Part shown: piece after piece, positions 32,484 through 61,700 of the stretch | How the letters are laid out: the number at the start of each line of letters is the position of its first letter | How positions within the stretch are numbered: position 1 is the stretch's first letter | From: Prorocentrum cordatum | Lineage: Eukaryota | Assembly (NCBI GenBank): GCA_963575745.1 | Contig: CAUYUJ010000079.1 | Span: 1 to 64,000, forward strand | Direction: 5' to 3' | Length of the DNA stretch: 64,000 nt | The notes under the pieces: generated by a model | Told to the model about the DNA's origin: nothing | What the model saw: only the letters and a program-made list of their open reading frames with translations | Databases searched by the model: none | Made by a program: the position numbers and the translations under genes

Positions 32484-32656
32484 CACGGGGAGGCGGAGGA
32501 AGAGGCACAGGGAGAGGGAGAGGGAGGAGGCTGCGCAACTGTTTTGTCTCAAGCCCGGGGCGGGGTCGCTCCCCCGCCACACGACCCCGAGACGAACCCC
32601 GCTCGTTGCTGGGACTCCCTCCGGGGACGACCGGCACGAGTCGCGGGTGACTCTGG

Positions 32657-33997
32657 ATGTCGGTGCGGATGGCTCCCGCGGATGCTCTGGATTTGACTTG
32701 CGACATCCTGGGGTGCCGCGAGGAGTTTCCTATGCAGCGGGCTGGTGTCGACTGTCCTATTAGTGATCTCTTGAAGGACCTCTGCTCCGCCGAAGGCGTC
32801 ACCCCAGCTTTCAGGCGCTTCTGGAGCCACAGTGTGGCTTACCAGAAATACAGCAACGACGTGGGTGATTGGGTAGATAGGACGACACAGGTTGATAAGA
32901 TGCTAATCCTCAGGGAACGCAAGCTGAATTACGAGGAGAACGACGCATGCACCCTGTTGAATCTGGATTCGGGCCGGCGGATGTCAAAGCACGAGAGCCG
33001 ACACCGGAGAATCTTCTGCGCTACGATGAGCCTCGTGAACTCGCGGGAATTCTGTGTGCATGTCAACGACCAGACCCGCGGCGAGGAGAACGTCAAAGGT
33101 TCTCGGATCATCCAGCTGGCCCAGGACTTCACCGGTGAACCTTTTACGGATAGTTTCGACAGGCGCTCCTTCTACCTTGGCCCTGCGGAAAAAGAGGACC
33201 GGAAACGCTCTCGCCTGGAAGCCGTCCTCAGCACTGAAGGAAAATGTGCGCTGACGCTCAAGGCCGGGCCGAGCGGGGTGCCTTTCCGGAAGCCTTTCTG
33301 CATCGCCCGGAGCCGCGCTTACGGGGGCTTGTTCGGAAAGAACACGGTCGCCCTGTACACCCTGCTTCTCGCGGAGGAGCCGGCCGGCGGCTTTCAAAAG
33401 GAGGGCGGCTGCGTCCCCGGGCCCGGCGCCCGGTCCGGGCTGCAGTTCTTGAAAGGCCGTTCCTTGGGCATGGGCGGCGGCTCCACGTGCTGCGGGGTCC
33501 TCTCTGACGAATTCGACGATGCCGTCAAGGACTACAAGCAGCTTCGCACGCGGCTGCTCACGGTGAAGCGGCGCTACGAGGCCTGCGCGAGGGAGGCTAC
33601 GCTGCCGGGGGAGCGCGACTTCTGGACTCGCCTGGCCAACAGGATGGCGCTGTGGCGCGGGTGCGACGACTTGCGCCTGCAATTCCGGCTGTGCGAGACG
33701 TCCAAGGTGGCCGGGATGGTGCTCGCGAGCCGCGGCCGGTGGCGAGCGGGGGCGGGCCCGCGAGACGCGCCCCAGCGCGAGGACGGCGACGGCGACGCGC
33801 TGGGCGACGAGGACAACGACGAGCCCGCCGCCGCCGCGGGCGCCCCCCCCGACGCACTCCGGCTCCTGCTCGACGCCCTGCGCGACCGCGAGGACTCCGA
33901 GGGCCAGCCGCAGCGGCGCGGCCGCACGCGGCCGGACTACGCCGAGAAGAAGCTTGAGCGGGCCGCGCTCAAGCGCGCGCGCTCTTCTCCCGGGTAG
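32657..33997 (+). CDS. aGPT-PPLase1 / 5-hmdU DNA kinase helical-domain-like protein (putative amino acid:DNA transferase, thymidine hypermodification family), 446 aa, intronless
   Basis: Ordered motifs W..SVAYQKYSN....DRTTQ, IF...SLVN, FTDSF, GGLF, VPGPGARSGL and LQFRLCETSK match the family pattern N-x-R-xx-DR-x-T ... GPGAxxGL ... LCExxK. Complex sequence; relict SL and paired motif upstream. Confidence 0.7.
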   Translation: MSVRMAPADALDLTCDILGCREEFPMQRAGVDCPISDLLKDLCSAEGVTPAFRRFWSHSVAYQKYSNDVGDWVDRTTQVDKMLILRERKLNYEENDACTLLNLDSGRRMSKHESRHRRIFCATMSLVNSREFCVHVNDQTRGEENVKGSRIIQLAQDFTGEPFTDSFDRRSFYLGPAEKEDRKRSRLEAVLSTEGKCALTLKAGPSGVPFRKPFCIARSRAYGGLFGKNTVALYTLLLAEEPAGGFQKEGGCVPGPGARSGLQFLKGRSLGMGGGSTCCGVLSDEFDDAVKDYKQLRTRLLTVKRRYEACAREATLPGERDFWTRLANRMALWRGCDDLRLQFRLCETSKVAGMVLASRGRWRAGAGPRDAPQREDGDGDALGDEDNDEPAAAAGAPPDALRLLLDALRDREDSEGQPQRRGRTRPDYAEKKLERAALKRARSSPG

Positions 33998-34001
33998 GCA
34001 G

Positions 34002-34038
<37 letters not shown>

Positions 34039-34043
34039 GTCTC

Positions 34044-34085
<42 letters not shown>

Positions 34086-34339
34086 TCTCTCTCTGGCACA
34101 CCCCCAGAGCCCCGGCTGAGGTCCCAGCGGCGCAGTTCGCATGGCGGCGCCGCACCACGTTGGCAACACCCCACGCACGTTTCGTGGCCTCAGAGGGAGC
34201 TCCACCTAAGGTCCCAGTGGCGCAGTCCGCATGGTGGCGCTGCCCGATTTCGGTCACCCCTCACACGTTTCCTGGCGCCATAGGAAGCTCCACACAAGGT
34301 CTCAGTGGCGCAGTTCGTTGAGTGGGGTGGAAAGCGCGG

Positions 34340-37917: not shown

Positions 37918-38001
<84 letters not shown>

Positions 38002-38329: not shown

Positions 38330-38446
<117 letters not shown>

Positions 38447-38454
38447 GCAGCGTG

Positions 38455-39036
38455 ATGTCCGCGCTCGGCGCCGCGATGTCCCCGGAGCCGGAGCGGCGGC
38501 GCGCCGCCGACGGCGCGGCTTACACCCGCCTCGAGTTTGAGCAGCACTACGGCGTGAGCCGCGGGCGCCGCGAGTGGGATCAGGCATCTCCGTGCGAGAT
38601 CTCCTCCGAGCTCGTGGATGTCGGCCCCCTTGCCATCGCCCCCTTCGCGGCCGACCGGGCGTCCGCGGGCGAGGGTTTCTTTCTGGACGGCGACGCGTTC
38701 ATGATCGGGCCGGAGTCGTACGGGTACGTCTACATGGCCACGACTGCGACCTGGCACGGGTATCCCATGTACCAGTGCCATCGCGGTCGCGATTCGAAGC
38801 CCGGCGTCGTCTTCCTGCTGTTCAATGGCGCGCGCTGGGAGGCCGGCCACGTCGCGGGGCTTGCTCCCAACTCGGCCGAGGAGGTTGCGCAGCGGATGCA
38901 GCCTGCCTTCCGCGGCCCCATCGGCGAGGACATCCGCGCGGCTGGCCGGCACCTGTGGGAGTGCTTCGACGACCGCCGGGGGGCGTGGTACCCGCCTTCC
39001 AGCTTCCGCACCACGGCGCTGCGGGGGCCTGAGTGA
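38455..39036 (+). CDS. Hypothetical protein with an N-terminal ERRxAxDGxxYTxxEFxxxYG...W motif
   Basis: 193-aa complex ORF with strong GC3 codon bias; relict SL at 38265-38287. Confidence 0.7.
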   Translation: MSALGAAMSPEPERRRAADGAAYTRLEFEQHYGVSRGRREWDQASPCEISSELVDVGPLAIAPFAADRASAGEGFFLDGDAFMIGPESYGYVYMATTATWHGYPMYQCHRGRDSKPGVVFLLFNGARWEAGHVAGLAPNSAEEVAQRMQPAFRGPIGEDIRAAGRHLWECFDDRRGAWYPPSSFRTTALRGPE

Positions 39037-39867
39037 GGCGCGCGGGCTCCGACGTCGCCGCGGGGCGGACGACCCGCGCGCGTCGCCGGGACTCCTCAGG
39101 GACGACCGGCGCGCGTCGCGGGGACTCTTGCGCTGCGCATGTCATCGGCCGCCGGCCTTTTTCGTCTGCGCGCCGCGGACGGCCCCCCCGCGCGTTGCCG
39201 GGGCGCTCGCGCGCTGCTCTGTCCGGCGCCTGGCTCGTTGTGAGCCGCTTGCTTCTGTTCTGCCCCGCGCCGCGGACGACCCGCGCGCGTCGCCGGGACT
39301 CCTCCGGGACGACCGGCGCGCGTCGCGGGGACTCCGCGGCGCGCTCTGCCAAGAGCTGCCAGCTTGGGCGTCTTCCGCAAAAAGCTGCTGCCGGATTTCC
39401 CTGGGTCTCTGAGGGGGGCGCGTTCGCCGTGGCGGCGCGTGGGCACCCTCCCCGCGATCGCCCGTCGCTCGCCGCGGATTATCTTGGAAGCTCGGGAGGC
39501 GGCCCTGGGATCCAGAGCCATCGTTTACATATCGGGTGTCGGGAGATTTCCACATTCTCGCCTGCTCAGCGTGGACTGCCGAGATCGCTTCGAGATCGCG
39601 TCGAGAGGACAGGCCACCCCAGGAAATATCCAAGGCGATTGAGAGACGGCCCGGAGGGGGGCTCGAGAACCCGCGAGACGGCGCCAGCGTCGCCGAAGTC
39701 TTCCGTCGCCATTCGGGATCAGGAGCGCGAGGTGCCCCGCTGTTTCTCGCTCGGAACGAGTCGCGGGGACTCCGCGCGGCGCCGGCGCTTCCACCAGGAC
39801 GACCCTCGCTGGTTGCTGGGACTCCCTCCGGGGACGACCGGCGCGAGTCGAGGGGGCTCCGGGCGGC

Positions 39868-42680
39868 ATGGCGCTCGGCGGGTCGGGGTCCTGGGCGGCG
39901 CGCCTGCGGGCGCATGCTGGGTGCGAGGACGCCCTGGCGGGAGTGGGGCTGCAGACGGCGGCGGGCCAAGCAGGGTACGAGAGCAGCCTGCTCTCGGTGC
40001 CAGGCTTCCTCCAGGCCCACGTCGCGCGCCAGTGGTTCCACGAGCTGGCGAGCATCGCGCATCGGGACGCAGTCTTCATCGGCCGCAGCCCGGAGACGCC
40101 GTCCACGTTCGTCGACCCGTTGCCGTGGAGGTACCGCACGGCGCAGTACTTCCGCGAGAAGTGTATCTGCAAATGCGACTACGCAGGCCAGCCTTGAACG
40201 ACCCCCCCTCGCTCCTCCGGGCGCGTCCCCGCGCCGCCCCCCCCCCACCCCCCATCGCTGCCGTCGCCTCCCGCGCTTCCTCCGCAGGCACCGCCAAGCA
40301 CTCCTCGCACACGTACGGCCCGGCCAGTTTCTTTTGGAAGGTCGAGGATTTCTTGATGGAGGCCATGGGGCTCGCGTCGCGCGAGGAGGTCCCAGACCTC
40401 TGGGTCGTCAATGTTTACGACGACCCCGCCAGGCACATCCGTCGTCGTCGTCGTCGCTGGCGCCGTCGTCGTCGTCGTCGCCATCGTCGTCGCCGTCGTC
40501 GCCGTCGATCGTTCGAGGTCGGAGGGCCGAAGACTTTGGAAGTTCTCGAAGCGTCGGCGCCGGGCTCGCGCGGACCCCCCGCGAGCCCGGCGCCGAACAG
40601 CAGCCCTCGGGGGCTCGAGGTGCACGCCGCCGCCGCCGCTGCCGTCGTCGTCGTCGTCGTCGTCGTGGTCGCGGTTCTCGCCCACCAGGCACATCGCCTG
40701 GCACAGCGACGACGACGACCTCTTCGACGCGATCCGCAGCCCCGCGGACATCGTGTCGCTCTCCCTCGGCGCCGACGGCCTGTTCGCTTTCCAGGTCAAG
40801 CCGAGGGGCCCGCTGGCCAGCGACGTGCTCGGCGCGCAGGAGCGGGGCATCCGCGGCGCCGTGGCTCTGGCGTCGGGGACGCTGGCTCTAATGTCCGGGC
40901 GTTTCCAGCGGGACTTCCAGCACGCGACCATCCCGAGCTGCGAGTGGGACACAAGCTGGGCCGCGAGCTTGCCGGCGAGGCAGCGCTGCCGCGTCGCGCC
41001 GGGTCCAGGGGCGCCCCGCATCAACCTCACTGGCCGGTGGGTGCGGAGGTCCGAGGGGAAAGAAGCGACGCCGCCCTCGCCACTTGGGGATGGGGCGGGG
41101 GTGGGGGGGGCACTTCCCACGAGGAGGTCCACGATGCCTTTCCGGGCTGGAACTCGAGGGTGTCTCTCGAACGGGAGGGGGGCGAATGCAACGCCACGAG
41201 GGAGAATCCGCCTGGGCCTTACGCCCTGGTGATGGCGGCGTCGCTTTCCCCCGTTCCCTCGAAGGCAGAACGCGGCGTGCCCGAGGCACAAGGGCCCTTC
41301 GCCGATGGCGGCGTTCCTGCAGCCAGCGCCAGCGCCCGCGCCGGCGCGCCCGCCCGCGCCCCCTCCGGGCGACGGCGAGGCGGTGCAGCGGCTTCAGGCG
41401 GAGGTGGGCGGGCTGCGGGCGCAGGTAGCGACGCTCACCGCCGACGTTGACCGCAGGCGGTCCGCGGAGCTGGACTACCTACAGTCATTTCGCGAGCTCC
41501 AGGGCAAGCTGCTGCGAGCCGAGGAGGAGCTGGCGAACGCGCAGGCTACCGCCCAGGTGAGCGACGCCTGAAAACTTAGAGATCCGACGTCATGAAAAAT
41601 TCGTGACGGCGGTTTTTCGTTGCTTTCAGTCCCGGAGGCCCTCAACGGGCCCTTGGACCGTCAAAAATCAATTCAGGGCGAGAAACCGGCCCCGGGGAAG
41701 TCGTCGAGACCTCCGGGGACTTCCGGGGGCCACGCGTCGAAAAGTTCATGACATCGAATGTCTGGGACTGGGTCGACCGCGCGGACATGGCGCGCGAGTT
41801 GCCCGCGTAAGGTCGCACGGAGCGCCGCGCCGCTGCCCCGTGCTCCGCGGAATTGACTGGCCCGCGCGAGCCACCGCGCAGGGTGCAGCGCCGCCGCGCA
41901 TGAGACCCCGTCTTCTCCGTCGCTCAGGCAGACGCGCGCGGGCCCGCCGCCGCCTCTGCGCCGGCGAGCAGCGCGGCGGGCGAGGTTCCTGGGGCTGCCG
42001 GTGACGGGGGGCTCTCGCAGGGCGTGGCTCGCGTCGCGGCTTTGCGCGCCTCCTCCAACGCCGACTTGCTCCTGCACGTCGCGGATCTCTGGGAGGGGCT
42101 CCGGGGCTTCACCGTCGCGGAGCAGGCCTCGCAGAACGACCCGCTCTTCAGGCTCGGCCGCGGCACCCGGGAGTCGCGCACCCACCGCGTCTTGATGCCC
42201 TACGGTTGCCTCCAGGCCTGCTTGCGGAGCGTGGCCTCGCGCCACGTGGAGGCGCTCCGCGAGTTCGGGTGGTTCGCCTTCGACCTGGAGCCGGGCGTCG
42301 CCGAGTCGCTCTGGCGCTTGAAGGGGGGGCGCGCGTCGGAGCGGTTGCAGGCGACGACCGTCGAGGGGGGGCCCTGGGACGGCTCCGAGACGCACCTCCG
42401 GATCATCGCGTTCGAGCTGGGCTCCGCGTTCGACGAGGGGGTGGCGCGCTGCCTTCCGCGCAAGCCGCCTGCCCGCCGCGGCGGTCGCGAGGCAGCGGCT
42501 GAGGCCGCGCACCTTGCCTGGTGCGCACTGCTGCGCGCCGACAAGGTTCGGCAGTGGGAGGACCTGGAGCAGGGGCGGATGGTTCTCCCGGCTCTGCCCC
42601 TCGAGTGGGGCCCGGTAGACTCCCTGGAGCGGATGCCGTGCGCTGTGTGGCTGCACGTCCCAAAGAGAGTCTGCGGGTAG
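39868..42680 (+). CDS. alkB: AlkB-family (ALKBH2/3-like) 2OG-Fe(II) dioxygenase fused to a coiled coil and an unknown C-terminal domain; exons 39868-40186, 40288-40432, 40689-41048, 41265-41556, 41928-42680 (622 aa)
   Basis: The spliced frame is continuous and gives VNVY, WHSDDD (HxD), IVSLSLGA, GTLALMSG.FQ..FQH and RINLTGR. All introns end AG|G with GC/GC/GT/GT donors and correct phases. Confidence 0.85.
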
Positions 42681-43375
42681 ACGCTCTTCTCTGGCCGCGT
42701 CAGGGGACGACCCCCGCCAGTCGCCGGGACTCCCTCGCGGGACGACCGGCGCTGGTCGGGGGGGCTCCGCCCGGCGAGGCTTGGACCGCTCTGCAGAGGA
42801 CGACCCCCGCCAGTCGCCGGGACTCCCTCGCGGGACGACCGGCGCTGGTCGGGGGGACTCCATCCCCGCGGCAGACCCCGCCAGTGGCCGCGCCGCTCGC
42901 TCCTGCCGAAAAAGGAACACTCCGCACACCCATCGCTCTCGAGCCGCCCGCGTAAGATTGTCGCGCGCGCGGTCTCAACACCGCGCCGCGCGCCTCGCAA
43001 GCTAACTGCGTGGGCCACCGGGTAAGGTCGCAGCGTCCTCGTTCCCTGAAGGGTGCTGCTCACGTTATACCAGTGTCGTTCGGTCCACCTCGCCGCTGCG
43101 CCTGGCGCCTGGGTCGCGGGTCAGAGACCCCTTACTCGGGTGTCGCGGGATGCTTATCGGGTGCCCCCTGGGGAGGCGACGAGGGCATGCGTGAGGGTAA
43201 TTCTTGATCGGGTACCATGGGGGCTTCCTGGAGGCCTCGCGGAGCAAGGGGGAGGAGGAGGAGGAGGAGGAGGAAGCGTCGACGCCGTCGTGGCTCAAGC
43301 CTTGTTCGGGTTCGAGTTTGTGGCGGCACTTCCGGCCCTTCCAGCGAGGTGCTGAGTTCTTCCCCGCAGTATCTC

Positions 43376-45570
43376 ATGGCGACCAGCTCGCAGTCGCAGC
43401 AGCAGCAGGGCCGCGACAAGCTCCCGCGCGACATCCGCGCGCCCGGGCCGCTGCGCAACGACGCGGTCGTGGGGCGCATTCTCCTCGTGGAGTCCCGCTC
43501 CCTGGGCTCGGCCGCTGCGACCGGCGAGGGTGCCCCGAGCCAGGTCGCCGCCACCGGCGCCAGCAAAAGCAAGGGCAAGGGCAAGGGCAAGGGCAAGGGC
43601 GCCCGCTCCGACGCCGTCCTGGAGATCACGCTGTGCGGGGGGAAGAGCCCGGCGGACATCATAATGTTCCAGGCGTGGGAGTCCAACGTGCGCGCGCGCC
43701 TGCAGGGCAGCGCGGGCGTCGGGGACACGGTGCGCATCAGGCGCGGCCTCGTCGTGGCGCACACCGACAAGACCCGCTTCCACTGCACCTCGCGCTCGCC
43801 CATGTTTCTGAAGGCGCAGAGCGACACGACCATGGAGCGCATCGAGGACAAGCCAGAGTTCTTGAGGTACCACCCCGTCACGCCCATCTCGTCGCTGCCG
43901 CTGCTGCCGCCCCGGTCTCCGGTCTGCCTCGCTGGCCGCGTGGTGGAGGCGGGCGAGGTGCAGAAGGTGGAGACGCCCGACGGCGACACCGACGTGCCGG
44001 TGGCGCACCTGGCGCTCCGCGTCTCGGAGGACTTGATTCGTGTGAATTTCTGGCGGGAGACGGCCTCGATGTTGAAGAGCCTTGGCAAGGGCGACCTCAC
44101 GTTCCTCTGGGGCGTGGCGAAGCAGTGGCCCAGGGCCGGCGAGGACCCGAAGACGCAGGTGGAGCTCCGCGCCACGGCGCGCACGAGGGTGCTGAGCTGC
44201 CCCGAGCCGCTTCCGGGCACCCTCGCGAGCACGCCGGCCGACCTGTCCGGCGCGAAGATCTGGTCTGCGCGCCTGTCCAGGGAGAGGAAGGATTACGCCA
44301 CCGCCAAGGGGACGTCGATGTCCTTGTCGGTGCTGGAGGGTCTGATGGCCTCGAAGGTGATCCGCGATCTCGACCGCGTCTTCGAGGTGCCTAGCGTGTT
44401 CCTGGAGTTCGGCTCGCAGCTGACGTACCCCGGGTGCGGCACGTGCCTGAAGGCCTGGCGCGAGGAGGGCACGATGCCGTGCCAGTGCCCCGCTGCGGAG
44501 CGTGTCCACCTGTGGCGCGCCAGGCTCGGTCTCCGAGACGCCTCGGGCCAGGTCCAGGCCGTCTGCTTCAAGGCGCTCGAGTCCGTCGTGGATGTCTACG
44601 GGGACGTCTCCGGCGACGCCGAGAAGGCGCCGGAGCATTTCAGCTCCGAGGAGGTGGCGGAGCGCCTGGCCAGCTCCGTCGCCGCGGTGCCCTTCACCGC
44701 GCGCATCACGGTGGCGGCGGACGGCTACAAGGAGGCCATGGAGGCGACGGTCCAGCTGCTCACCCCGACGTTCTCGACCGCCGGCGTCAAGCACCCGTTG
44801 AAGCCCGTCGTGCAGGTGGGCCAGTCCGCGGGCGCGTGCCCGCCTTTCCGCCTGGCGCAGACGGTATACTCGGAGGGCATCGGCATGACGGAGGCCGACG
44901 GCAACGCGTACGAGTCGTTCCGCGCCCTCGTGACGTTCGCAGACGACGCCGGCGGCCTCGGCGCAGACGGCCGCACGGCGCGCGAGGTCAACTGCGCCCT
45001 CGACGCCGGGGTGGAGGCGCTCAAGTACAGGCTGGAGGTCGACGGAGACGGCTCCATGGCGCATGCCCTCGGCAGCGCCGAGAAGAGGAGCTCCGCGCAC
45101 GTGCTCCTGGCGTGGAGGTCGACGGAGGTCATCGGGGTGATCGCGATGTTGCCGGTGCCGGGCGAGAGCTTCGACGCCTTCGGCAGGTTCTTCGCCAGGG
45201 AGGTGGAGCTGTGCAAGGACTCGGCGGCTCGCGGAAGGGGGCAGCGCGGGGGGGGGGGGCTCCCAGGGCCCAGGGAGGCGAGGAGCTTCGTGGAATGCAG
45301 AGCGCTTCCTGGATGGCCCAAGAGGCTTCCAATGAGTTGTCCGGGAGGGCGGGAGTGCTTTCACGAAGCCCCCTGCTCTCAGAGGGGGCCGCCCCCCTGG
45401 CCTTGCCCCCTTGCGCGCGCCGCCGCGAGGACTCGGCGGCCGCTGGCTCGTCCAACTCAGCGGGCTTCGACGCGACGCCGACGAAGGTCTTGACCGCGGC
45501 CGAGGCGGCGAACGTGACCTCCCCGCCGCTGTGGAAGGTCCGCAAGACGCTCGCTGGGCCCACGGCGTGA
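43376..45570 (+). CDS. RPA70-like multi-OB-fold ssDNA-binding protein; exons 43376-45217 and 45430-45570 (660 aa)
   Basis: OB-like segments (PISSL...VCLAGRVVEAGEV...IRVNFWRETA) and a DBD-C-like Zn ribbon YPGCGTCLK...CQC...WRARLGLRDASGQVQAVCF. The intron is flanked by a 13-nt direct repeat. Confidence 0.75.
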
Positions 45571-46517
45571 CAGGATGGCGCGGGTGCTCGGCAGGCCGCC
45601 CGGGCAAGCCCTGCGCGTCGCCGCGATCCTTCCCTGGAGGGCGAGCGGCGCGCGTCGGGGCGATCTCAGGCTGGTCGACGTGCCCATAGGCTAGCGGCGC
45701 AGAGCGCTGCTCTGTTCCACCCCGCGCTGCCCGCTGCCTTGGCCAAGACATATTTCCCCCCCTTGGAGGGCGTATTTTGCAGTCGGCAGGGCATTATCTA
45801 GCTTCGTGGCCCAGAGTAGCGGCCGATGCGCCGCGTGTCCTGGACTTCCACTGGTAGGGCAGCGTCCTGCAGCAAGAGTTTAAGTATTGTGGACGACCCT
45901 CGCGCGTTGCCAGGACCCTCCTCCGGGGGCGACTGACACGCGTCGACGGGACTCCACAGTCCGATCGGAGCGCCCTTGCCGCGCGCCCGCAGCCGCTCGC
46001 CCTCGCCCTGCAAGGCAACCACAAATGCGCGCCCGGCTTGGAGCGGGATCTCTGGAGGTGCGGAGAGAAGAAGGAAGGGAGGAAGGAGGCGGACACGACA
46101 CGGCGGCGCCCGGGTTTAGGTCACCGCGGGAGAGGCGGGCAGGGACGCAACGCACAGGGGAGATTAGGAGACGGTCGGGGGATCACGGCGCAGGGGGCGG
46201 ACACGCGATAAAGCGGCAAACAGTGTTAGCGCCAAACGAGTAGGTCTGGCAATTGCGCCGCAATGGAAATCTCCCGGACCTTGCCATCCATAGGTACAGT
46301 GGAGCCTATTTCGGGCTCTCCCTGCCTGGGGACATCTTGGCTGGCCTCTTGGGGCCATCCTGGAGCACATCGGTCAAACCGGCATTAATCTGCAGGCGCC
46401 CGTGGGGCCGTCGTGGAGCAGGCCTCGCGGGGCCCCTGTCGAGGCTTTCGTCTTGCTCGAGCCCGCGAGTGCCTCAGCCGGCGCGCCCCGCCGACAACCC
46501 GCGGAAGACCAGGCGCC

Positions 46518-47162
46518 ATGCCGTCCCCGCACCTCGAGGACATCGTTTCAGTTTTGACCGGCTTTGGCCTTAACCCGGAGGTGGTCTACGAGGACGGGCC
46601 CCCGGTCTTGTTGCGGGTGCCCTTGCGCAGTGCGACGCCTCAGCAGGGCGCGGGGCACGGCGGAGGCGAGGCGGCGCGGCCGCCCTCCGCCGCCGCGGGG
46701 CCGAGCGCAGTGGTCGGGCCGGGCGCCGCGGAGCCACCGGGGCCGCCGCCGTTCGAGGAGCTGCCCGAGCGCATCCGCTGGCGCGCCCAGTGCCTCCACA
46801 TGGCCCCGCCGTTGCCGTCGGCCGAAGATCGCCTCCGTAGGGCTTTCTGGCTCGGGAGCGTGGATGCCGGGCGCACAGTGGGCGACCGCTCTGATCTGGT
46901 GGACGTCCCGATGCCCCTGCCGCACAACAAGTGCTACGTGGTCCTGCGCCCGGCGGCGCGGCATGGCGGGCTGGGCCCGAGCGTGGTCACGGCCGTGGCG
47001 CACCTCAAGGCGCTCGTCACGGACGGTGCAGGCGCGGACGACCCCTCGGCCATCAGCAGAGGCTTCAACAGCCTCGTGGAGGTCGAGAGCTACTTGGCCG
47101 GCGCGGGCCAGCCGCCCGAGATCGCATCTCCCGCGCGTCGCTGGCGGCCGGCGCCGGAGTAG
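46518..47162 (+). CDS. Hypothetical protein with a C-terminal RNase H1 N-terminal / viroplasmin (Cauli_VI)-like domain, 214 aa
   Basis: KCYVVLR...GPSVV...LV...AISRGFNSLVEVESYL resembles YxVxxGxxxGIYxxW...FxxxxEAxxYL; GC3-biased codons. Confidence 0.5.
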   Translation: MPSPHLEDIVSVLTGFGLNPEVVYEDGPPVLLRVPLRSATPQQGAGHGGGEAARPPSAAAGPSAVVGPGAAEPPGPPPFEELPERIRWRAQCLHMAPPLPSAEDRLRRAFWLGSVDAGRTVGDRSDLVDVPMPLPHNKCYVVLRPAARHGGLGPSVVTAVAHLKALVTDGAGADDPSAISRGFNSLVEVESYLAGAGQPPEIASPARRWRPAPE

Positions 47163-48045
47163 GGCCTCGCCGGGAAGCCTCCCCGCCCTTTCTCCTCGCG
47201 CCGCGGCCCTGCGGTGAGGCGCGCGCGCCGCGCGGCGTCAGTCGACGCCCAGGACGACCCTCGCGCGTTGATGGGATCCCATTCGGGTGGGCGACCGTCA
47301 CGCGTCGGGGGGACTCCTCACCTGTTTTCGCCCACGCAGTTTTTTTCTACCCCTCTGTCCGCGACGCAGGGGGGCCCGTGCGTCTGCCTGCCGCCTTGCT
47401 GTGTCTAGCTGCCGACCTTTTCAACCACCCGTGGTGAGCGACCTCCGCGTGTCCCTGGAGTTTCGCCAGGATGGGCAGCGCGGCCGCCCGCGTGAGGTTA
47501 GCCGCATGCCGATTGCGTAGACGTTTGCCTCGAAGCGCGGCCGACCTGCGCGCGTCGCCGGAACTCCTGCGGGACGCCCGGCGCGCGTCGCGGGGACTCC
47601 GCGCGTTATTCTGCCTGGGGCCGCCGCCGTCGGGTCGCGAGGAGAAAAAAGGGGAGAGCGATTAGGGAAGGAAAGAGGCACGAAACGACGGCGGTCAGGG
47701 CTCGGGCCACCGCAGGACAGTCAGGCAAGAGCAGTGCACGACGGCACCTGGGAGAGAGGAGACCCCTTCCGCTAACTTTGTGTCAAAAGTTTGTTGTTTT
47801 TGAAAGAAGCGGGGTCTGGGTCGAGCCCTGAGATTTCCGGCAAACTCCCCCCCCCCCTTCCGTGTCCGTAAACATGGAGGCCCGAGCAGGCGCCGCCGCG
47901 CGTTCCGGCGCGCGCCCACCGCCATCTTCGACGGACGACCCCCGCTCGTGGACGGGACTCCCCGCGCGGGACGACCTTCCCGAGTCGGGGGGACTCTGGC
48001 TCGCACGAGCGGGCCATCGCCGCGCGCCATCGGGGCCCCGCGCGG

Positions 48046-48999
48046 ATGCCGCCGAAAGGCAGCGGGGCGAGATGCCGGATCAATGTGGTCAAGAGGGAGC
48101 GGGGTGGGGCAGTGACCTTCCGCGTGCGGCTGCGGGCCGCAGGCGAGCCCTGCATATACGGTCCTGACCGCGACGACCTGGCCGCGGCCACAGCGGATAA
48201 GGCTCGCCTCGCGAGGATGCCGGAGACGGGGCAGCGTGCGGAGCTCCGCCGCTTGCAAGCAGAGCACGCGCAGGCCCCAGGGGAGGGCCCCCAAACGCCA
48301 CGGCGCCAGCTGGAGGCGCCCCCTCGGCGCCGAATGACTGGGAAACGAGGACCGTCGCCTCGCCCTTCCCCAGCGCCGAGAGCCGCCGCCGGCACTCCAG
48401 CATCGGGCCCGAAGACTGGGGGCCCTCAGACGCCAGGCGCCTCGGCCGCGGGCAGGCGCCCCCAACAGACTCCCAGGGCGGCGCGCAGCCGGGGCCCGAC
48501 TCCTCGGACGGCGGGAGGCCGACGGGACGTCGCGGCCGCGACGTTCCACGACGTTCTGGCCTGGCACAGTGACCGGGGCCGCTTTCCGCGGCGCTCCAAG
48601 TCCAGGAAGGGCCTCGAGAATGACTTGGCGCAGAGGTGGCGGAGGTGGGAGCGGTCGACCAGGCTGCAGCCAGCGGCCCTGATCCTGAAGCAGCGCATCG
48701 ACGCGCTGCTGCAGACCGAGCGGGAGTCAAAGCTGGGGGATGAGCGAGCCGAGGGCGCAGAGCAGGCGCTGCTAATGCTGCACCAGCATTGGTGCGAGGG
48801 GAACGACGTCCACGACGAGGATCGTTGGAGGCAGCCTGCCCTGCATCGATCTCGCGGCGGCCAGCACCCGTACCCGGGCTTCTCGAACTTGTTCAACACC
48901 TGCTACCTCAACGCGCCCCTGCAGTGCCTGCTCCACTGCCCCGCCGCGCGCGCCGCGCTCCTGGGGGCGGAATGCGAGGGCGAGCCGCTGCTTGTGCAG
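48046..48999 (+). CDS. RepHel gene exon 1: N-terminal region, HA-like domain and USP (peptidase C19) Cys box
   Basis: FHDVLAWHSDRGRFP...ENDLAQRW (48541-48648); YPGFSNLFNTCYLNAPLQCL (48871-48930). The CAG|GA donor at 48999/49000 joins in phase to 55722. Confidence 0.75.
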
Positions 49000-55011: not shown

Positions 55012-55058
<47 letters not shown>

Positions 55059-55721: not shown

Positions 55722-58700
55722 GAGCTGCGCGCCCTGGCAAGCGCCTGCGTGCGCGGAGCGCCGCTGCCCGCGGAGGACGTCGGTGGCGCGGCGCCCGCGC
55801 CCGCCCGCGTGGACCGCTGGTCCCCGCACGCCTTCTTGGACGCGTTCCTCGAGATGCACTGGGTGGACTTCAGGCTGGGGAGGCACGGGGACGCGAGCGA
55901 GGCGCTGTCGTTCGTCGTGGATGACACGCAGGGTCTCCGCCGTCTCTTCCAGACAGGATGCGGCGAGGAGGTCATGCTGAGGCTGCCAGCTTTCGTGGAC
56001 GGGGCAGACGACGGCGACGACGCCTTGTCGCCGCAGGACTTCTTCCTCGACGGGGGCGCCCAGAGATTGGACGCGCGAGAGCTGCTCCGCCGCGGCGTCT
56101 CCATGGGCGGGCGACTGCGATCGAAGCCCGAGCTGCTGGCGGTCCACGTGCCCCAGAGATGGGAGCGAGGCGACGGCACGGCGCTCTTCCTCGGCAGCTG
56201 CGACATCGCGCCCTACTGGAGCGAGCTCCCAGAGGTGGTTCTGAGGGCGGGGGGGGAAGACGTCGCATACCGCCTGCGCGCCTACGTGCAGTACATCCTG
56301 CCCGAGGGATCGGACGTCATCCCATCCCACGTCCTGAGTGACCCGCAGGGCCACTTCGTGGCCCACTTCGAGGAGGACGGGAGCTGGTACACTGCGGACG
56401 ACCTGGGCGATCGGCCGCACGTGGTCCGGTGGGCGCCGGGCACCGAGCACAAGATGCCATTCGTGATCTTCCTCGAGAGGATGGACTCCAGGGCGGCCGG
56501 CGCCGATGCCTGCCCGTGGCCGCCCGGGCCAGTCGTCGACGACGCGGAGGGCCTGGGCGACGGCGGCGACGTCGACGCGGACGGCGAGGACAGCTTCGGC
56601 CCCGACGGAGCGCCCGAGGAGGAGGGCGGGGCCGGCGACGCCAGCCATTCGGGCGCACGGAAGCGGCCCGCGGCGTCCGCGAGGAGCGGCGCCCCTGCCA
56701 AGAAGCGGCTCCGCCTCCGAGGGAAGCAGAGCCGCGACGGGAGGCAGCAGATCCGCGATGGGAGGCAGCAGAGCCGCGACGGGAGGCAGCAGAGCCGCGA
56801 CGGGAGGCAGCAGAGCCGCGCTGGGTGGCTGCAGAAGGATAAGCAGCGCGGTTGCAAGCCGGAGGATGTGCTCCGGCAGGGGCGGAAGCCGAAGGGCAAG
56901 GGCGACAACGCCGACGGGTCCAGGCAGGACGCCCAGAACAACGCCACCGCGCCTGTCCTGCGCAGCAGCAGGGAGGCGAAGAGCTTGCAGACCGCCAGCG
57001 AGGAGCGCCGGAAGTGCGGAGACCTCTTCTTGCTCTTGCACCTGATGGAGCCGCTGGCCGCTGCCGATGACCTGCTGGAGCACTACCCTGATTTCTTCGT
57101 CTACGCGGGCGACGACTGCACCCGCCGATGGGCGACGTTCCTGCAAGCGCCCGATCGGTCCGACAAGTTGGCCGGCAGGTTGCGGGAAGCGCTCGGGGTC
57201 ACGGAGAACGAAATATCCGACGCCAAGCGCCGACTGGAGAGCGGGGAGTGGCACGGGCACCACGTCGCGGAGCTCCTGGACGAGCGCCTGGACTCCGCCC
57301 ACGGCGCCCACTCCGTGGCGGCCACAGTCAGGCTGGCGGCGGGCGACGCGTCGGCCGCGCTGGGCGACGGCAACCCGCTGAGGGCGCACCTGGCGGAGGC
57401 GTGGCAGCGCAGACCCTGCAACCGTGGGCCGCCCCGGCACGCCGCCATGCCTGCCCGCCTTCGGGATCGCTCCGAGTGGTTCCAGTGCCCCGCGCCTGCC
57501 CTGCAGTATGCCTGCCGCTTGTGCGAGGCCGAGTTCCCCAACAGGGAGGCGTTCAAGGCGCACCAGGGCAGAGTCCACGGAGGGCAGCGGTGGTACCAGG
57601 CGCAGTACGTGGCGCGGTGCGAACTGGAGCCCTACCAGCCGTCGCCGACCGAGGAGCGCCAGGCGAGCGAGCGGCGGGGAATTGCGCTCGACCCCCCCGC
57701 CCTTTCCCCCTGGGATAGTCTCTTAGCGCTGGCGCTCCCAGCGTCTGCGTTAAGGGCATCGAGTTTCTCCGGGCGGGGTGACCGCCTAGATCTGGGGGTC
57801 GGGCTGCACTTCCTGGTCGCGCCGCAGGTTGTTGCCAGGTTCCACGTCTCCCAGTGCTGCGCCACCGTGGAACCCGTGGACGAGACGTTCGTCCCGAAGC
57901 CCGAACCGGAGGTGCAGAAGCAGCTGCTCCACGCGGCGATCGTCGGCAGCATCGCTGGCAGGATCGGGCAGGGGGGCTTCGCGGAGGAGATCTCCCGGCA
58001 GGCGGCCGGCGCGGCGGAGTCGGCGGCCCGCGATCAGGCCGCGTGCCAGGCGAGGGAGCCCCGTGCTTTCCGGGCCTGCGTCTGCTGCGCCATGCAGCAG
58101 TGGTCCGAGAACCTCCACTCGGAGTTCCTGGTCGGGGACAAGTGCGGCATAAAAAACCGGGCCCTGTTCGCGGAATGCCTGTCGGCCGAGTGGTATCATC
58201 AACGATGGCCCCTCATACCGCGCGAGGAGCTGATGTCGTCTGCCGTGGACTTCCCACACGAAGACAGCGAGGGCTCGCCGACGTGCACGAAGATACTCCT
58301 GCACAAGAGGCGCGTGCCGCCAGAGGCGCTCACAGGGGAAGCGCCCGTGAGAGTGTGCGAAGCTTGCAGGAGAGACCTGTGGTCTGATCATCCCAAGGTG
58401 CCGCTCATGGCCCTGGTGAACGACCTCTGGCTGGGCCGCCACCACCCGCTGCTCAGGAAGGCCGCTCTCGCGCACCAGATGCTGCTCGCGCTGGGCCGCG
58501 TCGTGTCCACGAAGATCTACCTGTCCAGCAAGGGCGCCGACAAGGCCGTCCGGCAGGAGCAGGAGTCATGGAGGCAGAAGTTCCTGCAGTACGCCATGCA
58601 GGGCACCGCCATCGTGTTCGGGAACGGGAACGTGGACCACGCGATGCGGAGCTTCCCGCCGGAGCCCGACATGCTCAGGGACACGTTCGTGGCCGTCTTC

Positions 58701-61700
58701 GCGGGCGCCGACGACGACGAGGACGGCGCCCCCCTGACAGAGGAGCAGAAGCAGGAGAGAGCCTTGAGAGCCATGAGGGAGGAGGTGGCGTTGCACGTCG
58801 ACAAGGCGGAGTACGACGCACAGGCGCGGTTGTTGAAGCAGCACAACTACGTGTACAATGACCCGGGCGTGCAGTACCGATCGGACCTCGTGGACAGGTT
58901 CCCCCCGCAGCCTGGCGTGCCCGACTGCATGCTGGCCTGCGCGAAGTATGTCCCCACGGACGCGGCGTTGGACGACGTTGCGCAAGCGCAAGGGCCCGCC
59001 TCGGCCACCACTGGCGCGCAGGCCGACATGGGCGCGGCCGCCGGGGACGCGCAGGAACTGACCAAGTGGCTGTCCGTCCTCGAGGACCACATGGACGACG
59101 TCAGCGAGATCACGTCCCTGCCGGCACTGCAGGGCATGCTCGAGAGGATGGAGAGCCAGGCGGGGCGCGTGGTGGCCAACGAGCTGATGTCCCGGCTCGA
59201 GAACGAGAGAGGCGAGGATGGGGCGCTGCAGCTGGACGAGATCGGGCGTCACCGCCTGCGGGATCTCTGCAAGGAGTTCCACGCGCGCTGTCGGAAGATC
59301 TCCCCGGGGGAAGACGTGGCGAAGCTGCACTGGCGCGTCCAGAGGCTGGAGACGAACAACTGCCAGGCGGGAGAGGACGCGGGCGACCTGGCGCGACCTG
59401 CAGGAGTCGCGGGGACTCCCGCCGAGGACGACCCGCGCTCCTTGCAGGAACCGCCCGGCCCAGACGGCCAGCGAAAGGCGAGGCTTGTGGTGCCCACTTC
59501 GAAGAAGGCGGAGACCTGGTGGGACCCGAAGTACTGGTCGATTGCCAGGCCCACGGACTTCTGCTACGGGGACTGCGCATGGGGCCTCGGCGATAAGGAG
59601 GGTCGGCTCTGCTTCAGCGTGGCGCACTTCATCCAGAATCTTCTCACGCGGGAGGAGATGGAGTATGACGTTCCCGGCGACGAGGAGAAGTACGTGGCCA
59701 GGCCCATCAATCGTTTCCGGAGCTCCTGGTACGACGTGCACCTGCTGCACTCCTTCTGGAGAGTTACGGAGACGACCAACAGCACCTACACTTTCATGAA
59801 GACGCCCGGGGCGTTCGGGGCCGCTCGCGCCTGCGCAGACATCACGCCAGAGATGATCGAGCAGGTGCAGCTCAGGGCGCAGCAGACGGGCGGGAAGGCA
59901 ACGCTGCACGGCATCCTCAAGGACAAGGACACCCCCAACAAGGTGCGCCAGGCCTTCGCCACCCTGGGCCAGGCCACTGCCAGTCAAGTCGGGTCCGACG
60001 GACACAGGCGCGAGCTGCGCGGAGAGGGCGAGGCGTATACCCTGCGCTTTGGCCCGCCCGTCCTGTTCGTCACCCCGAATCTGGCAGACACCAAGCAGCC
60101 CCTGATCCTCATCGTGCAGGGGGAGGAGTACAACTTCAACGCCGACCTGTCCGAGGCGGAGCAGGTCACGTTGAGGGAGATGTCGCAGCGCCTCGCCGCG
60201 GATCCCGTGGGCCAGGCCGTGGTATTCGAGCTGATGATGAGGCTGTTTTTCGTCCACGTGCTCGGCCTGCGCCGGGAGACCGTCGGGTGGCGGAGAGGAG
60301 AAGTTCGACAGATTTCGGAGCACTGGGTCTCCGACGGCGTGGCGGCCGACCTCATGGGCGTCCCCACTGTGTTCGGCCCCCTCGCGGCCGCCTTCGGCCC
60401 TGTGGAGGCCCAGGGCCGCGGCTCGCTGCACCCGCACATCCTCATCTGGCTGCTGCAGGGTCAGCTGCGCGTGCTCCTCGACATGCTGCAGCGCGACCAG
60501 GCGCGCTTCCAGGAGCGCTTGAACCTGTGGATGCGGCAAGTGGTGCAGGCCGTCGTCGCCACTCAGCAGAGCGCTGTGGAACTGCTGCCCCTGCATCTGC
60601 AGGGAGGCGAGAACAAGTGCGGAGCCGAGGTGCCGCCGCTCCCGTTCGGGCCCAACGAGAAGCGGCATTGCAGGGCCGACGGCGGCAAGGAGACAGCGAC
60701 GCCAGAGCAGCTCGGTAAGGAAGGCGAAAAAAGAGAGGATCTGTATTACTACGATCCCTCGTCAGACGACTACCACGAGGCCATTCGCGCCGATCTGCCG
60801 CTGCGCGACACCAATGGCGGGATCGTGGGAGACGCGGCGACGTGGACAGAGCAGCGGGCCGCGGAGACCAAGAATTACTGGGCGCAGCCGCTCTCCAGCA
60901 GCGCCTCCGGCATTTTCCCGAGGTACCGCGGCGGATGCACCCTGGCAGGGTCCCTCCCGAGCGACGAGTGGATTCGCGAGATGTGCCACGACGTGCGCCA
61001 GCTCGTCATCGGTTGCGGCATCCACGTCTGCAGCCCCTCCTGCTACAAATACCATTCGGACAAAGCGCGCGGCTCGCAGATCTGCCGCCACAACTTCTAC
61101 AACCTGGTCACATTGTGCACATGGCCCGAGGATGGGGACTCCCAAGAGTGCCGGCTCCGGACGCGCGGGAAGGCGCTGCGTGGCTGCATCGGCATATTCC
61201 TGGAGACGGAGTACGGCATGGCCGGGCGCATCATTACCTTCCAGCTCCACCCTGGGGAGACCTCCACCAAGTACGCGGCGGTCGTCTCGGCGCGGTGCAA
61301 CGTGGACGTGCAGGACATGAGACGGGTACTGCCCCCGCGCCTGTGGATGGATCCGTTAGAGCTGGAACCTCCAGCGAACGAGGGGGACCGCAATAGCTAT
61401 AACCATGGCCTGTACCCTCAGCGATATGCCAACTTCTCAGTGGGCGCCCGAGAGGATTGGGGGTGGTTCCAGCACCTGAACACCACGTCCGAGGAGAAGT
61501 GGGAGCTCGTCGTAGTCACCGACTGGCACAAGATCTACAGAGAGCTCGCGAACTGCGTCAGCCCGATCGTGGACGGTGACGACGCTGCGCGGGCCGATCT
61601 CCAACGCGACCTGGAGCGGCACGCGATCGCCACCTTCGTGGATGCTCACAACACGAGCTATTACGTGAATTCGTACACCACGAAGGTGAACCCCAGCATG

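What the first reader, a model, noticed from the sequence alone, without database searches (positions are those of the whole stretch)
32591..59438. Paired ~28-bp motif punctuates the whole cargo cluster
The unit GACGACC-N7-GTCGCNGGGACTCC occurs as tandem pairs 5-8 nt apart at 32591-32653, 39068-39127, 39275-39335, 39798-39860, 42706-42768, 42799-42861, 45892-45955, 47253-47317, 47541-47600 and 47934-47996. A partial copy lies inside RepHel at 59406-59438. All have the same orientation, and I did not see the motif in the first 32 kb. Pairs end 3, 7 and ~50 nt before the ATGs of the aGPT, AlkB and RepHel genes, and others follow stop codons. Each unit has an internal CGAC...GTCG dyad. Candidate roles are an element-specific promoter or UTR signal, Rep-binding iterons, or cassette recombination sites. 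The motif ties these genes into one system.
Basis: partly seen in the sequence, partly recalled or inferred. Interest (0 to 1): 0.8.

Follow-up and report, generated by a model that had tools for sequence, protein, structure and literature searches.

The report
Conserved 70-nt hairpins flanking Helitron-linked genes
The "paired motif" is really the two arms of one conserved 70-base hairpin, present twelve times on the sense strand next to the genes around a dinoflagellate Helitron transposase, most likely a structured signal in their untranslated regions.

Summary
The motif is real: 18 units, all on the + strand, 0 expected by chance. The reading as "tandem pairs" is wrong. Each pair is the 5' and 3' arm of one ~70-nt imperfect hairpin.

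A covariance model finds 12 copies, all on the + strand, at 32586-59458. The next best hit scores 15 bits. Covariation is strong: 93.6% of cells are paired against 77.5% in shuffles and 42-50% with slid partners, and 20 of 26 pairs change on both sides. Two CGA/GAC internal loops are conserved. Wobble pairs favour folding of the + strand (12 T.G against 2 C.A).

Ten copies fill the four spacers between genes at 39-48 kb. One lies between a relic spliced leader and an ATG. One lies in frame inside RepHel.

The nearest relatives of RepHel are Prorocentrum cordatum proteins.

Best reading (about 0.45): a UTR-embedded structured RNA element. Rivals are a single-stranded-DNA signal for the Helitron, a dispersed selfish palindrome, and double-stranded-DNA iterons. 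There is no Rfam match and no RNA data. Function is inferred.

The parts
32586..32658 (+). Hairpin copy 1. It lies between a relic spliced leader (32533-32553) and ATG 32657, which overlaps its base.
   Evidence: CM 74.3 bits. MFE -38.0 kcal/mol. Sequence.
39063..39132 (+). Hairpin copy 2, starting 26 nt after the stop codon at 39034-39036.
   Evidence: CM 75.4 bits. MFE -42.7.
39270..39339 (+). Hairpin copy 3, mid-spacer, 93% identical to copy 2. It is the site of the read-depth peak at 39309.
   Evidence: CM 79 bits. MFE -53.8. Identity. Depth about 13,000 in 62 contigs.
39748..39778 (+). Lone 3' arm (half copy).
   Evidence: Repeat family D12. Sequence.
39793..39864 (+). Hairpin copy 4, ending 3 nt before the ATG (39868) of the AlkB-like gene.
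   Evidence: CM 85.1 bits. MFE -39.4.
42701..42772 (+). Hairpin copy 5, starting 20 nt after the stop codon at 42678-42680.
   Evidence: CM 75.8 bits. MFE -48.0.
42794..42865 (+). Hairpin copy 6, 94% identical to copy 5.
   Evidence: CM 86.3 bits. Identity.
45598..45671 (+). Hairpin copy 7, not in the finding. It is the most divergent of the copies in the spacers, has the same architecture, and starts 104 nt after the stop at 45491-45493.
   Evidence: CM 57.6 bits; not in the training set. MFE -47.4.
45887..45959 (+). Hairpin copy 8.
   Evidence: CM 82 bits.
47248..47321 (+). Hairpin copy 9, starting 85 nt after the stop at 47160-47162.
   Evidence: CM 79.6 bits.
47535..47604 (+). Hairpin copy 10, same subtype as copies 2 and 3 (87-90% identity).
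   Evidence: CM 80.3 bits. Identity.
47929..48001 (+). Hairpin copy 11, ending 44 nt before the RepHel ATG at 48046.
   Evidence: CM 82.6 bits. Its 5' arm is kept in the upstream extension of paralogue P0050.
59387..59458 (+). Hairpin copy 12, in frame (24 codons) in the RepHel linker between DUF6570 and the Rep domain.
   Evidence: CM 60 bits; not in the training set. Its peptide is kept in 11 of 11 P. cordatum paralogues of 71-88% identity.
32533..32553 (+). Degenerate relic of the dinoflagellate spliced leader, directly after a (GGA)n run.
   Evidence: 15 of 21 positions match and the 3' hexamer is intact. Three such sites were found in the window against 0.084 in shuffles, 0 of 500 reaching 3.
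43279..43299 (+). Degenerate relic spliced leader after (GGA)n, 76 nt before the ATG of the OB-fold gene.
32657..33997 (+). Gene of unknown function (446 aa).
   Evidence: ORF. No Pfam family. Homologues P0032 (90%) and P0033 (40%).
38452..39036 (+). Gene of unknown function (about 194 aa).
   Evidence: ORF with GC3 0.86. No Pfam family.
39868..42680 (+). AlkB-like 2OG-Fe(II) oxygenase gene. Its frames are broken, probably by introns. It may run on to the ORF that ends at 42680.
   Evidence: PF13532 E 1.3e-9, 39 bits against a cut-off of 31.2, on 40357-41229. Frames.
43376..45493 (+). OB-fold gene resembling RPA70 or MEIOB (single-stranded-DNA binding).
   Evidence: PF01336 below threshold (22.9 bits). 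Atlas neighbours are MEIOB, REPA_OB and POT1 at 0.91-0.93, leads only. No PDB sequence match.
46518..47162 (+). Gene of unknown function (about 214 aa).
   Evidence: ORF with GC3 0.85. No Pfam family.
48046..48999 (+). RepHel exon 1: the N-terminal region and the start of the USP/UCH domain.
   Evidence: PF00443 24.2 bits. P. cordatum paralogues join it directly to 55722 onward.
55722..64000 (+). RepHel exon 2: rest of USP, DUF6570, Helitron_like_N and the start of the helicase. It runs off the window.

Best explanation
Each 'pair' is one ~70-nt hairpin that folds on the + (sense) strand.

Architecture, from base to tip:
- an outer stem of 3-7 bp
- a 3x3 internal loop, CGA opposite GAC, which can form tandem G.A/A.G pairs beside a C.C
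- a central stem of 16 bp with one bulged base on each side
- a second 3x3 loop, GAC opposite CGA
- an apical stem of 3-5 bp
- a variable loop of 4-7 nt

I think the hairpin acts in RNA, as a structured element carried in the 5' or 3' untranslated regions of the mRNAs of this gene set. That set is RepHel, the AlkB-like gene, the OB-fold gene and three genes of unknown function.

I propose that a factor, possibly a dimer, recognises the two conserved loops. Near the start codon the hairpin would gate translation. After the stop codon it would affect 3'-end formation or stability. The genes would then form one post-transcriptional group, in an organism that relies on such control.

Shown: the copies, the fold, the covariation, the strand bias and the positions.
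Inferred: that the hairpin is present in mature mRNA, that a factor binds it, and what effect it has.
For: 1. Fold. RNAalifold gives 26 pairs, 11 of them with compensatory changes, on 10 copies. On 12 copies, 93.6% of cells are paired against 77.5% in shuffles (0 of 500 reach it) and 42-50% with slid partners. 20 of 26 pairs change on both sides. Two copies outside the training set have the same architecture with different letters.

2. The loops are conserved while the stems vary. This is the pattern of a recognised structure, not of a small-RNA precursor.

3. Sense-strand folding. In the inner helices there are 12 T.G, 0 G.T, 2 C.A and 0 A.C among 240 cells. The + strand folds better than the - strand in 8 of 12 copies, with summed energies of -520 against -491 kcal/mol. 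All 12 copies are on the coding strand of all neighbouring genes.

4. Position. A copy starts 20-104 nt after each of 4 stop codons. A copy ends 0-44 nt before 3 start codons.

5. Copy 1 lies between a relic spliced leader and the ATG. A retrocopy of a trans-spliced mRNA would therefore have carried the hairpin in its 5' UTR. Homologous loci P0032 and P0037 keep the relic and the hairpin upstream, readable in their N-terminal extensions.

6. The three ATG-proximal copies resemble one another (0.77-0.84; two of the three pairings are best matches) and share CGAG in the 3' arm.

7. A 166-aa protein in a data set that I recall to be transcriptome-derived is 164 of 166 identical to the 32657 gene (count by eye).
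Against: - No RNA run was listed, so transcription of the hairpins is not shown.
- A hairpin of -38 to -54 kcal/mol 0-44 nt from the ATG should strongly hinder scanning. The idea therefore needs a regulated unwinding step.
- One copy is inside the RepHel coding sequence and is kept in paralogues. A UTR model does not predict this.
- In paralogue P0050 the upstream 5' arm is kept (13 of 13 residues), but the stretch where the 3' arm should be does not look canonical in any frame.
- One pair is broken in P0032, judged from its peptide.
- T.G pairs and tandem G.A also form in DNA, so the strand bias fits + strand single-stranded DNA equally well.
- Reads suggest that the subtype of copies 2 and 3 is high-copy in the genome. 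That would fit a dispersed repeat.
- Folding z-scores are modest, -1.5 to -4.9, because the sequence is GC-rich.
Confidence: 0.45

Rival explanations
1. The hairpin is a single-stranded-DNA signal of the Helitron. It would fold on the displaced + strand during rolling-circle transposition and be recognised by the HUH Rep domain, or coated or avoided by the OB-fold protein. It could serve as a pause, termination or strand-transfer site. This could also explain how separate genes came to lie between hairpins, in the manner of cassettes.
For: - RepHel is an HUH nuclease and helicase family that acts on single strands (Helitron_like_N).
- Neighbouring genes handle single strands: an OB-fold protein like RPA or MEIOB and an AlkB-like gene.
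- The fold is specific to the strand that carries RepHel.
- One copy lies inside RepHel and is kept in 11 of 11 close paralogues.
- Known Helitron-like elements use palindromes as terminal signals (passages of PMC4067079).
Against: - Known Helitron palindromes are 5-20 nt long and terminal, about 11 bp from a CTRR end (PMC4067079). These hairpins are about 70 nt long, number 12, and lie internal to and upstream of RepHel. None has a consistent CTRR after it (my reading).
- If they were terminators they would truncate the element before RepHel.
- The apical loops are variable, so there is no conserved nick site.
- Copy 1 belongs to a separate retrocopy whose upstream context differs in the homologous locus.
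- Element ends and other element copies could not be examined.
Confidence: 0.22
2. The hairpin is a dispersed selfish palindromic repeat, comparable to a miniature transposon or a REP element. It accumulates in non-coding spacers and has no role for these genes. The structure would be kept by its own propagation.
For: - The repeated unit is only the hairpin. Flanks are unrelated even for the 93-94% identical neighbours.
- Half copies and decayed arms exist.
- A ~100-nt depth peak lies at 39309: 62 contigs with summed depth about 13,000, against 6-17 for the neighbouring genes in X1. In X2 it is 27 contigs and about 830.
- Two unrelated short contigs encode two hairpin-like peptides each (P0034 and P0035).
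- One copy sits in a variable protein linker.
Against: - 12 of 12 copies are on one strand. That would need selection by orientation.
- I saw no target-site duplications or terminal signals by eye. This was not tested formally.
- Conserved loops with covarying stems point to recognition of a fold.
- None lies in the 32 kb of repeat-rich DNA upstream.
- The depth peak rests on short contigs, each perhaps placed only at its best match, and could partly reflect GC-rich simple sequence.
Confidence: 0.2
3. The motif is a double-stranded-DNA site. Four GGAC-type boxes would be bound by a transcription factor or by Rep as iterons, forming a promoter for each gene.
For: - The most conserved letters form four similar boxes (GGACGACC and GGGACTCC, twice each).
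- Copies lie upstream of three ATGs.
Against: - Compensatory changes between the arms (20 of 26 pairs) are not expected for a duplex site.
- Copies directly after stop codons and 3 nt from an ATG leave no room for a transcription start.
- The wobble asymmetry has no meaning in duplex DNA.
Confidence: 0.06
4. The hairpins are RNA-processing substrates: small-RNA precursors, or structured non-conventional introns (introner-like) that are excised from transcripts.
For: - Size and shape are like a precursor, about 33 stacked positions.
- The copies form a same-strand cluster.
- I recall that dinoflagellates carry many introner families. PMC12130899 was seen only for its abstract and its Helitron passages.
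Against: - The arms vary while the loops are conserved, the reverse of microRNA families.
- There is no conserved AG at the 3' end.
- Copy 1 was retained between a relic spliced leader and the ATG.
- Copy 12 is translated in 11 gene models.
- No Rfam match lies on any copy.
Confidence: 0.07

Closest known systems
Iron-responsive-element-type UTR stem-loops (comparison from my own knowledge)
   Same: A short hairpin with conserved unpaired bases and covarying stems. It is found in the 5' UTR of some mRNAs and, in several copies, in the 3' UTR of others, and it ties unrelated genes into one group.
   Different: There is no sequence or loop similarity. This hairpin is twice as long and has two symmetric G.A-type internal loops. 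No binding protein is known, and presence in mRNA is inferred.
Helitron, Helentron and Helitron2 terminal palindromes
   Same: A GC-rich palindrome on the RepHel-sense strand of a rolling-circle element. RPA-like and cysteine-protease genes accompany RepHel (PMC4067079 passages).
   Different: Those palindromes are 5-20 nt long, one or two per element, and lie at the termini, about 11 bp from CTRR. Here there are 12 copies of about 70 nt, internal, between genes, with no CTRR.
Integron attC sites (comparison from my own knowledge)
   Same: Imperfect palindromes between same-direction genes. The structure is conserved more than the sequence, unpaired bases are conserved, and one strand folds.
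   Different: Integrons are bacterial and use a tyrosine recombinase, with one attC per cassette. Here there are 2-3 hairpins per spacer, no integrase, and no evidence of cassette exchange.
REP elements with RAYT, and IS200/IS605 subterminal hairpins (comparison from my own knowledge)
   Same: Imperfect hairpins in intergenic DNA that are recognised as single strands by an HUH enzyme.
   Different: Those systems are prokaryotic and use single-tyrosine (Y1) enzymes. REP elements occur in both orientations. No link of this kind was tested here.
Giant-virus 'hairpin rule' 3'-end signals (comparison from my own knowledge)
   Same: Hairpins just downstream of stop codons in compact gene arrays.
   Different: Those hairpins are not conserved in sequence. 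These are, and they also lie before start codons and inside an ORF.

Membership tests
Canonical Helitron 3'-terminal hairpin | A 16-20-nt palindrome about 11 bp upstream of a 3' CTRR end (PMC4067079 passages). | tested here: not met
   The hairpins are about 70 nt long. No consistent CTRR is seen within 30 nt downstream (my reading). Only one copy, 45598, has a CTAG about 20 nt away.
Canonical Helitron 3'-terminal hairpin | One per element, at the 3' terminus downstream of RepHel. | tested here: not met
   11 of 12 copies lie upstream of the RepHel start, and one lies inside the gene.
Helitron-like element (the RepHel gene itself) | A Rep (HUH) domain joined to a Pif1-type helicase. | tested here: met
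   PF14214 E 1.3e-14 and PF20209 E 2.4e-11. A Walker-A-like start of a helicase stands at the window end. Relatives carry PF05970. The element termini are not in the window.
Integron attC | A tyrosine recombinase (IntI) nearby and one site per cassette with R and L core boxes. | tested here: not met
   No integrase domain was found in the ORFs scanned. There are 2-3 hairpins per spacer. The boxes differ.
Any Rfam RNA family | A covariance-model match at or near the gathering score. | tested here: not met
   cmscan of the whole window at E up to 1 gave 20 sub-threshold matches, none on a hairpin.
MicroRNA-type precursor | Conserved mature arm, variable loops, small-RNA reads. | tested here: inconclusive
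   The conservation pattern is the reverse: loops are conserved and arms covary. No RNA data were available.
Introner or miniature inverted-repeat transposon | Splice sites at or near the ends, target-site duplications, many dispersed copies on both strands. | tested here: inconclusive
   There is no conserved AG at the 3' end. The hairpin was retained in a retrocopy and in gene models. A high copy number is hinted for one subtype. Target-site duplications and the genome-wide strand distribution were not testable because no genome is held.
UTR regulatory stem-loop (a functional class, not a sequence family) | Present in mature mRNA and bound by a trans-acting factor. | not testable with these tools
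   There is only indirect support: the position between a relic spliced leader and an ATG, and positions after stop codons.

The most novel reading that the evidence does not exclude
The hairpins are folded single-strand recombination sites of a eukaryotic, Helitron-borne gene-cassette system. The HUH RepHel would cut and join at them on the displaced + strand, so that genes bounded by hairpins can be gained, lost or reordered. This would be a functional analogue of integron attC sites or of REP elements with RAYT, in a dinoflagellate.
Probability: 0.08. Interest if true: 0.9.

Novelty: new variant of a known kind. Interest (0 to 1): 0.62.

Why it matters
Almost nothing is known about cis-acting signals in dinoflagellate gene expression. 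I recall it to be mostly post-transcriptional, and the review I searched (PMC11453091, term search only) contains none of the words hairpin, palindrome or Helitron.

A hairpin with this much covariation support, placed at the ends of several unrelated genes beside a rolling-circle transposase, gives a concrete and testable candidate. It is either a UTR control element or a single-strand DNA signal of a Helitron family that carries ssDNA-handling genes.

Either outcome would be new for dinoflagellates and for Helitrons. The covariance model can be run on any dinoflagellate assembly at once.

Tried and rejected
- **Whole genome.** None is held for this window, so genome-wide enrichment could not be computed.
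- **Earlier findings.** Nothing was returned by place or by two sequences.
- **Collection scans for the motif.** Viral contigs gave 0. Genome contigs gave 0. Metagenome contigs gave one locus, L001, where only the apical 23 nt match (14.7 bits). I rejected it as a chance hit in GC-rich DNA.
- **RepHel relatives in viral contigs.** 83 pattern matches, none confirmed.
- **Sequencing runs.** No RNA holder was listed, so expression and transcript ends could not be mapped.
- **Contig laying**. It gave no usable joints at hairpins among those shown; 178 more were not shown. Parts without special depth are not evidence.
- **Rfam and tRNA scans.** Nothing on the hairpins.
- **PDB sequence search.** Nothing for the OB-fold protein or for the large intronic ORF.
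- **Pfam on the first 32 kb.** 144 ORFs gave only sub-threshold, low-complexity hits, so there is no ordinary host gene in the window to serve as a control.
- **My first reading that a LINE kills RepHel.** Withdrawn. Paralogue gene models join 48999 to 55722 (GA...AG), so the 6.7-kb stretch is an intron that holds the large ORF.
- **Loose spliced-leader scan** (at least 13 of 21 matches). It was not above shuffles, 9 against 9.1. Only the strict criterion is significant.
- **Literature.** Three searches and term look-ups in three papers found no description of such hairpins. This covers only the library held.

Full report
**Observation.** The pattern GACGACC-N7-GTCGCNGGGACTCC with up to three mismatches occurs 18 times. 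All hits are on the + strand and between 32591 and 59419, against 0.00 expected in 100 shuffles.

**What the pairs are.** I aligned the ten pairs with 10 nt of flank (A1). The variable triplets of the first and second unit turned out to be reverse complements of each other: CCAG/CTGG, CTCG/CGAG and GCGC/GCGC. RNAalifold folds each pair into a single hairpin of 26 pairs, 11 of them with compensatory double changes.

A covariance model built on this fold (R1) was run with filters off. It finds 12 copies in the window, all on the + strand, at 57.6-86.3 bits. The next hit scores 14.9 bits, E 0.18. Two of the 12 were not in the training set:

Each of the 12 folds on its own into the same shape, with energies of -36 to -54 kcal/mol. 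From base to tip the shape is:
- an outer stem;
- a 3x3 internal loop, CGA opposite GAC;
- a central stem of ten pairs, a bulged base, then six pairs;
- a second 3x3 loop, GAC opposite CGA;
- a short apical stem;
- a variable loop.

The near-symmetry of this design is why the arms look like direct repeats.

**Strength of the fold.** On the 12-copy alignment, 93.6% of 312 cells form standard pairs. Shuffles give 77.5% (0 of 500 reach the observed value) and slid partners give 42-50%. 20 of 26 pairs show a change on both sides. That alignment is fitted to the model, but the MAFFT alignment gave the same picture. Energy z-scores are modest, -1.5 to -4.9, because GC-rich shuffles also fold well. 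The covariation is therefore the main evidence, not the energy.

**Which strand folds.** In the two inner helices there are 12 T.G, 0 G.T, 2 C.A and 0 A.C among 240 cells. On the other strand, 12 wobbles would become mismatches. The + strand gives the lower energy in 8 of 12 copies. Some copies are near-duplicates, so these counts are not independent.

**Surroundings.** The window is GC-rich (54-71%) and looks eukaryotic. No genome is held for it. From 32.6 kb onward every gene lies on the + strand. The genes are:
- 32657-33997: unknown, 446 aa.
- 38452-39036: unknown.
- 39868 to about 42680: carries an AlkB-type 2OG-Fe(II) oxygenase domain (PF13532, E 1.3e-9). Its frames are broken, probably by introns.
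- 43376-45493: an OB-fold protein. The Pfam OB hit is below threshold. Atlas neighbours are MEIOB, RPA and POT1 at 0.91-0.93, which are leads only.
- 46518-47162: unknown.
- RepHel from 48046. It carries USP/UCH, DUF6570 and Helitron_like_N, and a helicase start stands at the window end.

Paralogue gene models join 48999 directly to 55722. The 6.7 kb between them is therefore a GA...AG intron that holds a 1,843-codon ORF, not a lethal insertion.

The closest relatives of RepHel are 11 Prorocentrum cordatum proteins at 71-88% identity. More distant ones come from Effrenium and Durusdinium. The source is thus a Prorocentrum-like dinoflagellate.

The first 32 kb holds micro- and minisatellites and no credible domain in 144 ORFs. 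Its lack of hairpins therefore says little about ordinary host genes.

**Placement.** Ten copies fill the four spacers between genes at 39-48 kb, two or three per spacer.
- A copy starts 26, 20, 104 and 85 nt after the four stop codons.
- A copy ends 3 nt before the ATG of the AlkB-like gene and 44 nt before the ATG of RepHel.
- Copy 1 overlaps ATG 32657.

The three ATG-proximal copies resemble one another at 0.77-0.84 identity, and two of the three pairings are best matches. They share CGAG in the 3' arm. Only the hairpin is repeated. The flanks are unrelated even between the 93-94% identical neighbours.

**Spliced-leader relics.** An exact copy of the 22-nt dinoflagellate spliced leader lies at 18064-18043 on the - strand, directly after a (GGA)n run. 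I first typed its consensus from memory. Two degenerate relics (15 of 21 positions, 3' hexamer intact) lie on the + strand, again directly after (GGA)n. One is at 32533-32553 and one at 43279-43299. Three such sites were found against 0.084 expected, and 0 of 500 shuffles reach three.

The first relic is followed by 32 nt, then hairpin 1, then the ATG. If this gene is a retrocopy of a trans-spliced mRNA, that mRNA carried the hairpin in its 5' UTR. This is an inference.

Homologous loci P0032 and P0037 are 90% identical in the protein. Their N-terminal extensions read through the same relic and the same hairpin, while the sequence further upstream differs.

A 166-aa member of the same protein cluster is identical to the window gene at 164 of 166 positions (counted by eye). 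It carries a EukProt label. I recall, and no call confirms, that this data set is transcriptome-derived.

**The copy inside RepHel.** It spans 24 codons in frame, in the linker between DUF6570 and the Rep domain. Its peptide is present in 11 of 11 P. cordatum paralogues. P0011 keeps only the part from the 3' arm, and it is absent in P0014-P0018. Several substitutions seen in the paralogues would keep pairing or restore the canonical GAC loop, and others would break a pair. This is read from peptides only.

**Elsewhere.**
- No Rfam family matches any copy.
- The motif is absent from viral contigs and from prokaryotic genomes, and the single metagenome hit is a chance match.
- A phmmer search with one reading frame of hairpin 3 against 1.84 billion representative proteins found two short proteins. 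Each holds two hairpin-like peptides in other contexts.
- Contigs of run X1 laid on 32-52 kb gave single-copy-like depth (6-17) for the genes at 42-48.6 kb. They also gave a narrow peak at 39309 inside hairpin 3: 62 contigs, summed depth about 13,000. In X2 the peak is 27 contigs and about 830. This hints that this hairpin subtype is present in hundreds or more copies. The contigs are short and may each be placed at only one site, so I treat it as a lead.

**Interpretation.** The covarying stems, the conserved loops and the one-strand wobble pattern show that a folded single strand is what is maintained. This rules against a plain duplex promoter box (about 0.06).

Two media remain, RNA and + strand DNA. 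I favour RNA at about 0.45, for three reasons:
- the copies sit where UTRs should be;
- one copy lies between a relic spliced leader and an ATG;
- I recall that dinoflagellates regulate mainly after transcription.

The single-strand DNA reading (about 0.22) draws on the HUH enzyme, on the ssDNA-handling neighbours and on the conserved copy inside RepHel. Against it, the hairpins meet none of the tested features of known Helitron palindromes, and as terminators they would truncate the element.

A selfish dispersed palindrome (about 0.20) fits the depth peak, the hairpin-only repeat unit and the decayed copies. It does not explain why 12 of 12 copies lie on one strand.

A small-RNA or introner reading (about 0.07) is weakened by the conservation pattern, the lack of a 3' AG, and retention in the retrocopy and in gene models.

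**Limits.** There were no RNA data, no genome and no DNA of the paralogous elements. The supplements of the papers were not consulted. Function is inferred throughout.

Noticed in passing
18043-18064 (- strand): An exact 22-nt dinoflagellate spliced-leader sequence, followed by a second partial relic (…CTCAAGCCCATCTCAAG…). This marks a recycled retrocopy on the - strand. No hairpin accompanies it.
   Followed up: partly
18065-18110 (-), 32490-32530 (+), 43240-43272 (+): All three spliced-leader relics are directly preceded by a (GGA)n microsatellite. This could be a target preference of the retroposition machinery or a by-product of it.
   Followed up: no
49000-55721: The RepHel intron has a GA donor and an AG|G acceptor. 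In this copy it holds a 1,843-codon + strand ORF (49156-54687) of lower GC. The ORF has no Pfam or PDB match at the thresholds used. By eye it looks like a non-LTR retroelement (endonuclease-like start, an FIDD motif), but this is unverified.
   Followed up: partly
48046-48999 and 55722-56500: A USP/UCH cysteine-protease domain is fused N-terminal to DUF6570, Rep and Hel. Several P. cordatum, Effrenium and metagenomic relatives share this arrangement (PF00443).
   Followed up: partly
29048-30582 and 34119-34314: A 77-bp satellite (17 copies, 97% alike) and a related 88-bp repeat. The bin at 34002-34668 reaches a depth of about 35,000 in run X1.
   Followed up: no
34322-35437: A 257-bp tandem repeat, 4.3 copies, 83% alike.
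   Followed up: no
1-32500: Dense trinucleotide repeats (CCT/GGA, GAT, CAC) with strong strand skews. No credible protein domain was found in 144 ORFs.
   Followed up: partly
40440-40512 and 40616-40680: (CGT)n runs inside the AlkB-like gene between its two coding blocks. Many contigs join or loop here. This is a probable intron with a variable microsatellite.
   Followed up: no
protein P0036 (cluster of P0032): A 166-aa protein labelled by its source as from a Pyramimonas data set is 164 of 166 identical (by eye) to the window's 32657 gene, although the window's other relatives are dinoflagellate. A mislabelled or mixed source is possible.
   Followed up: no
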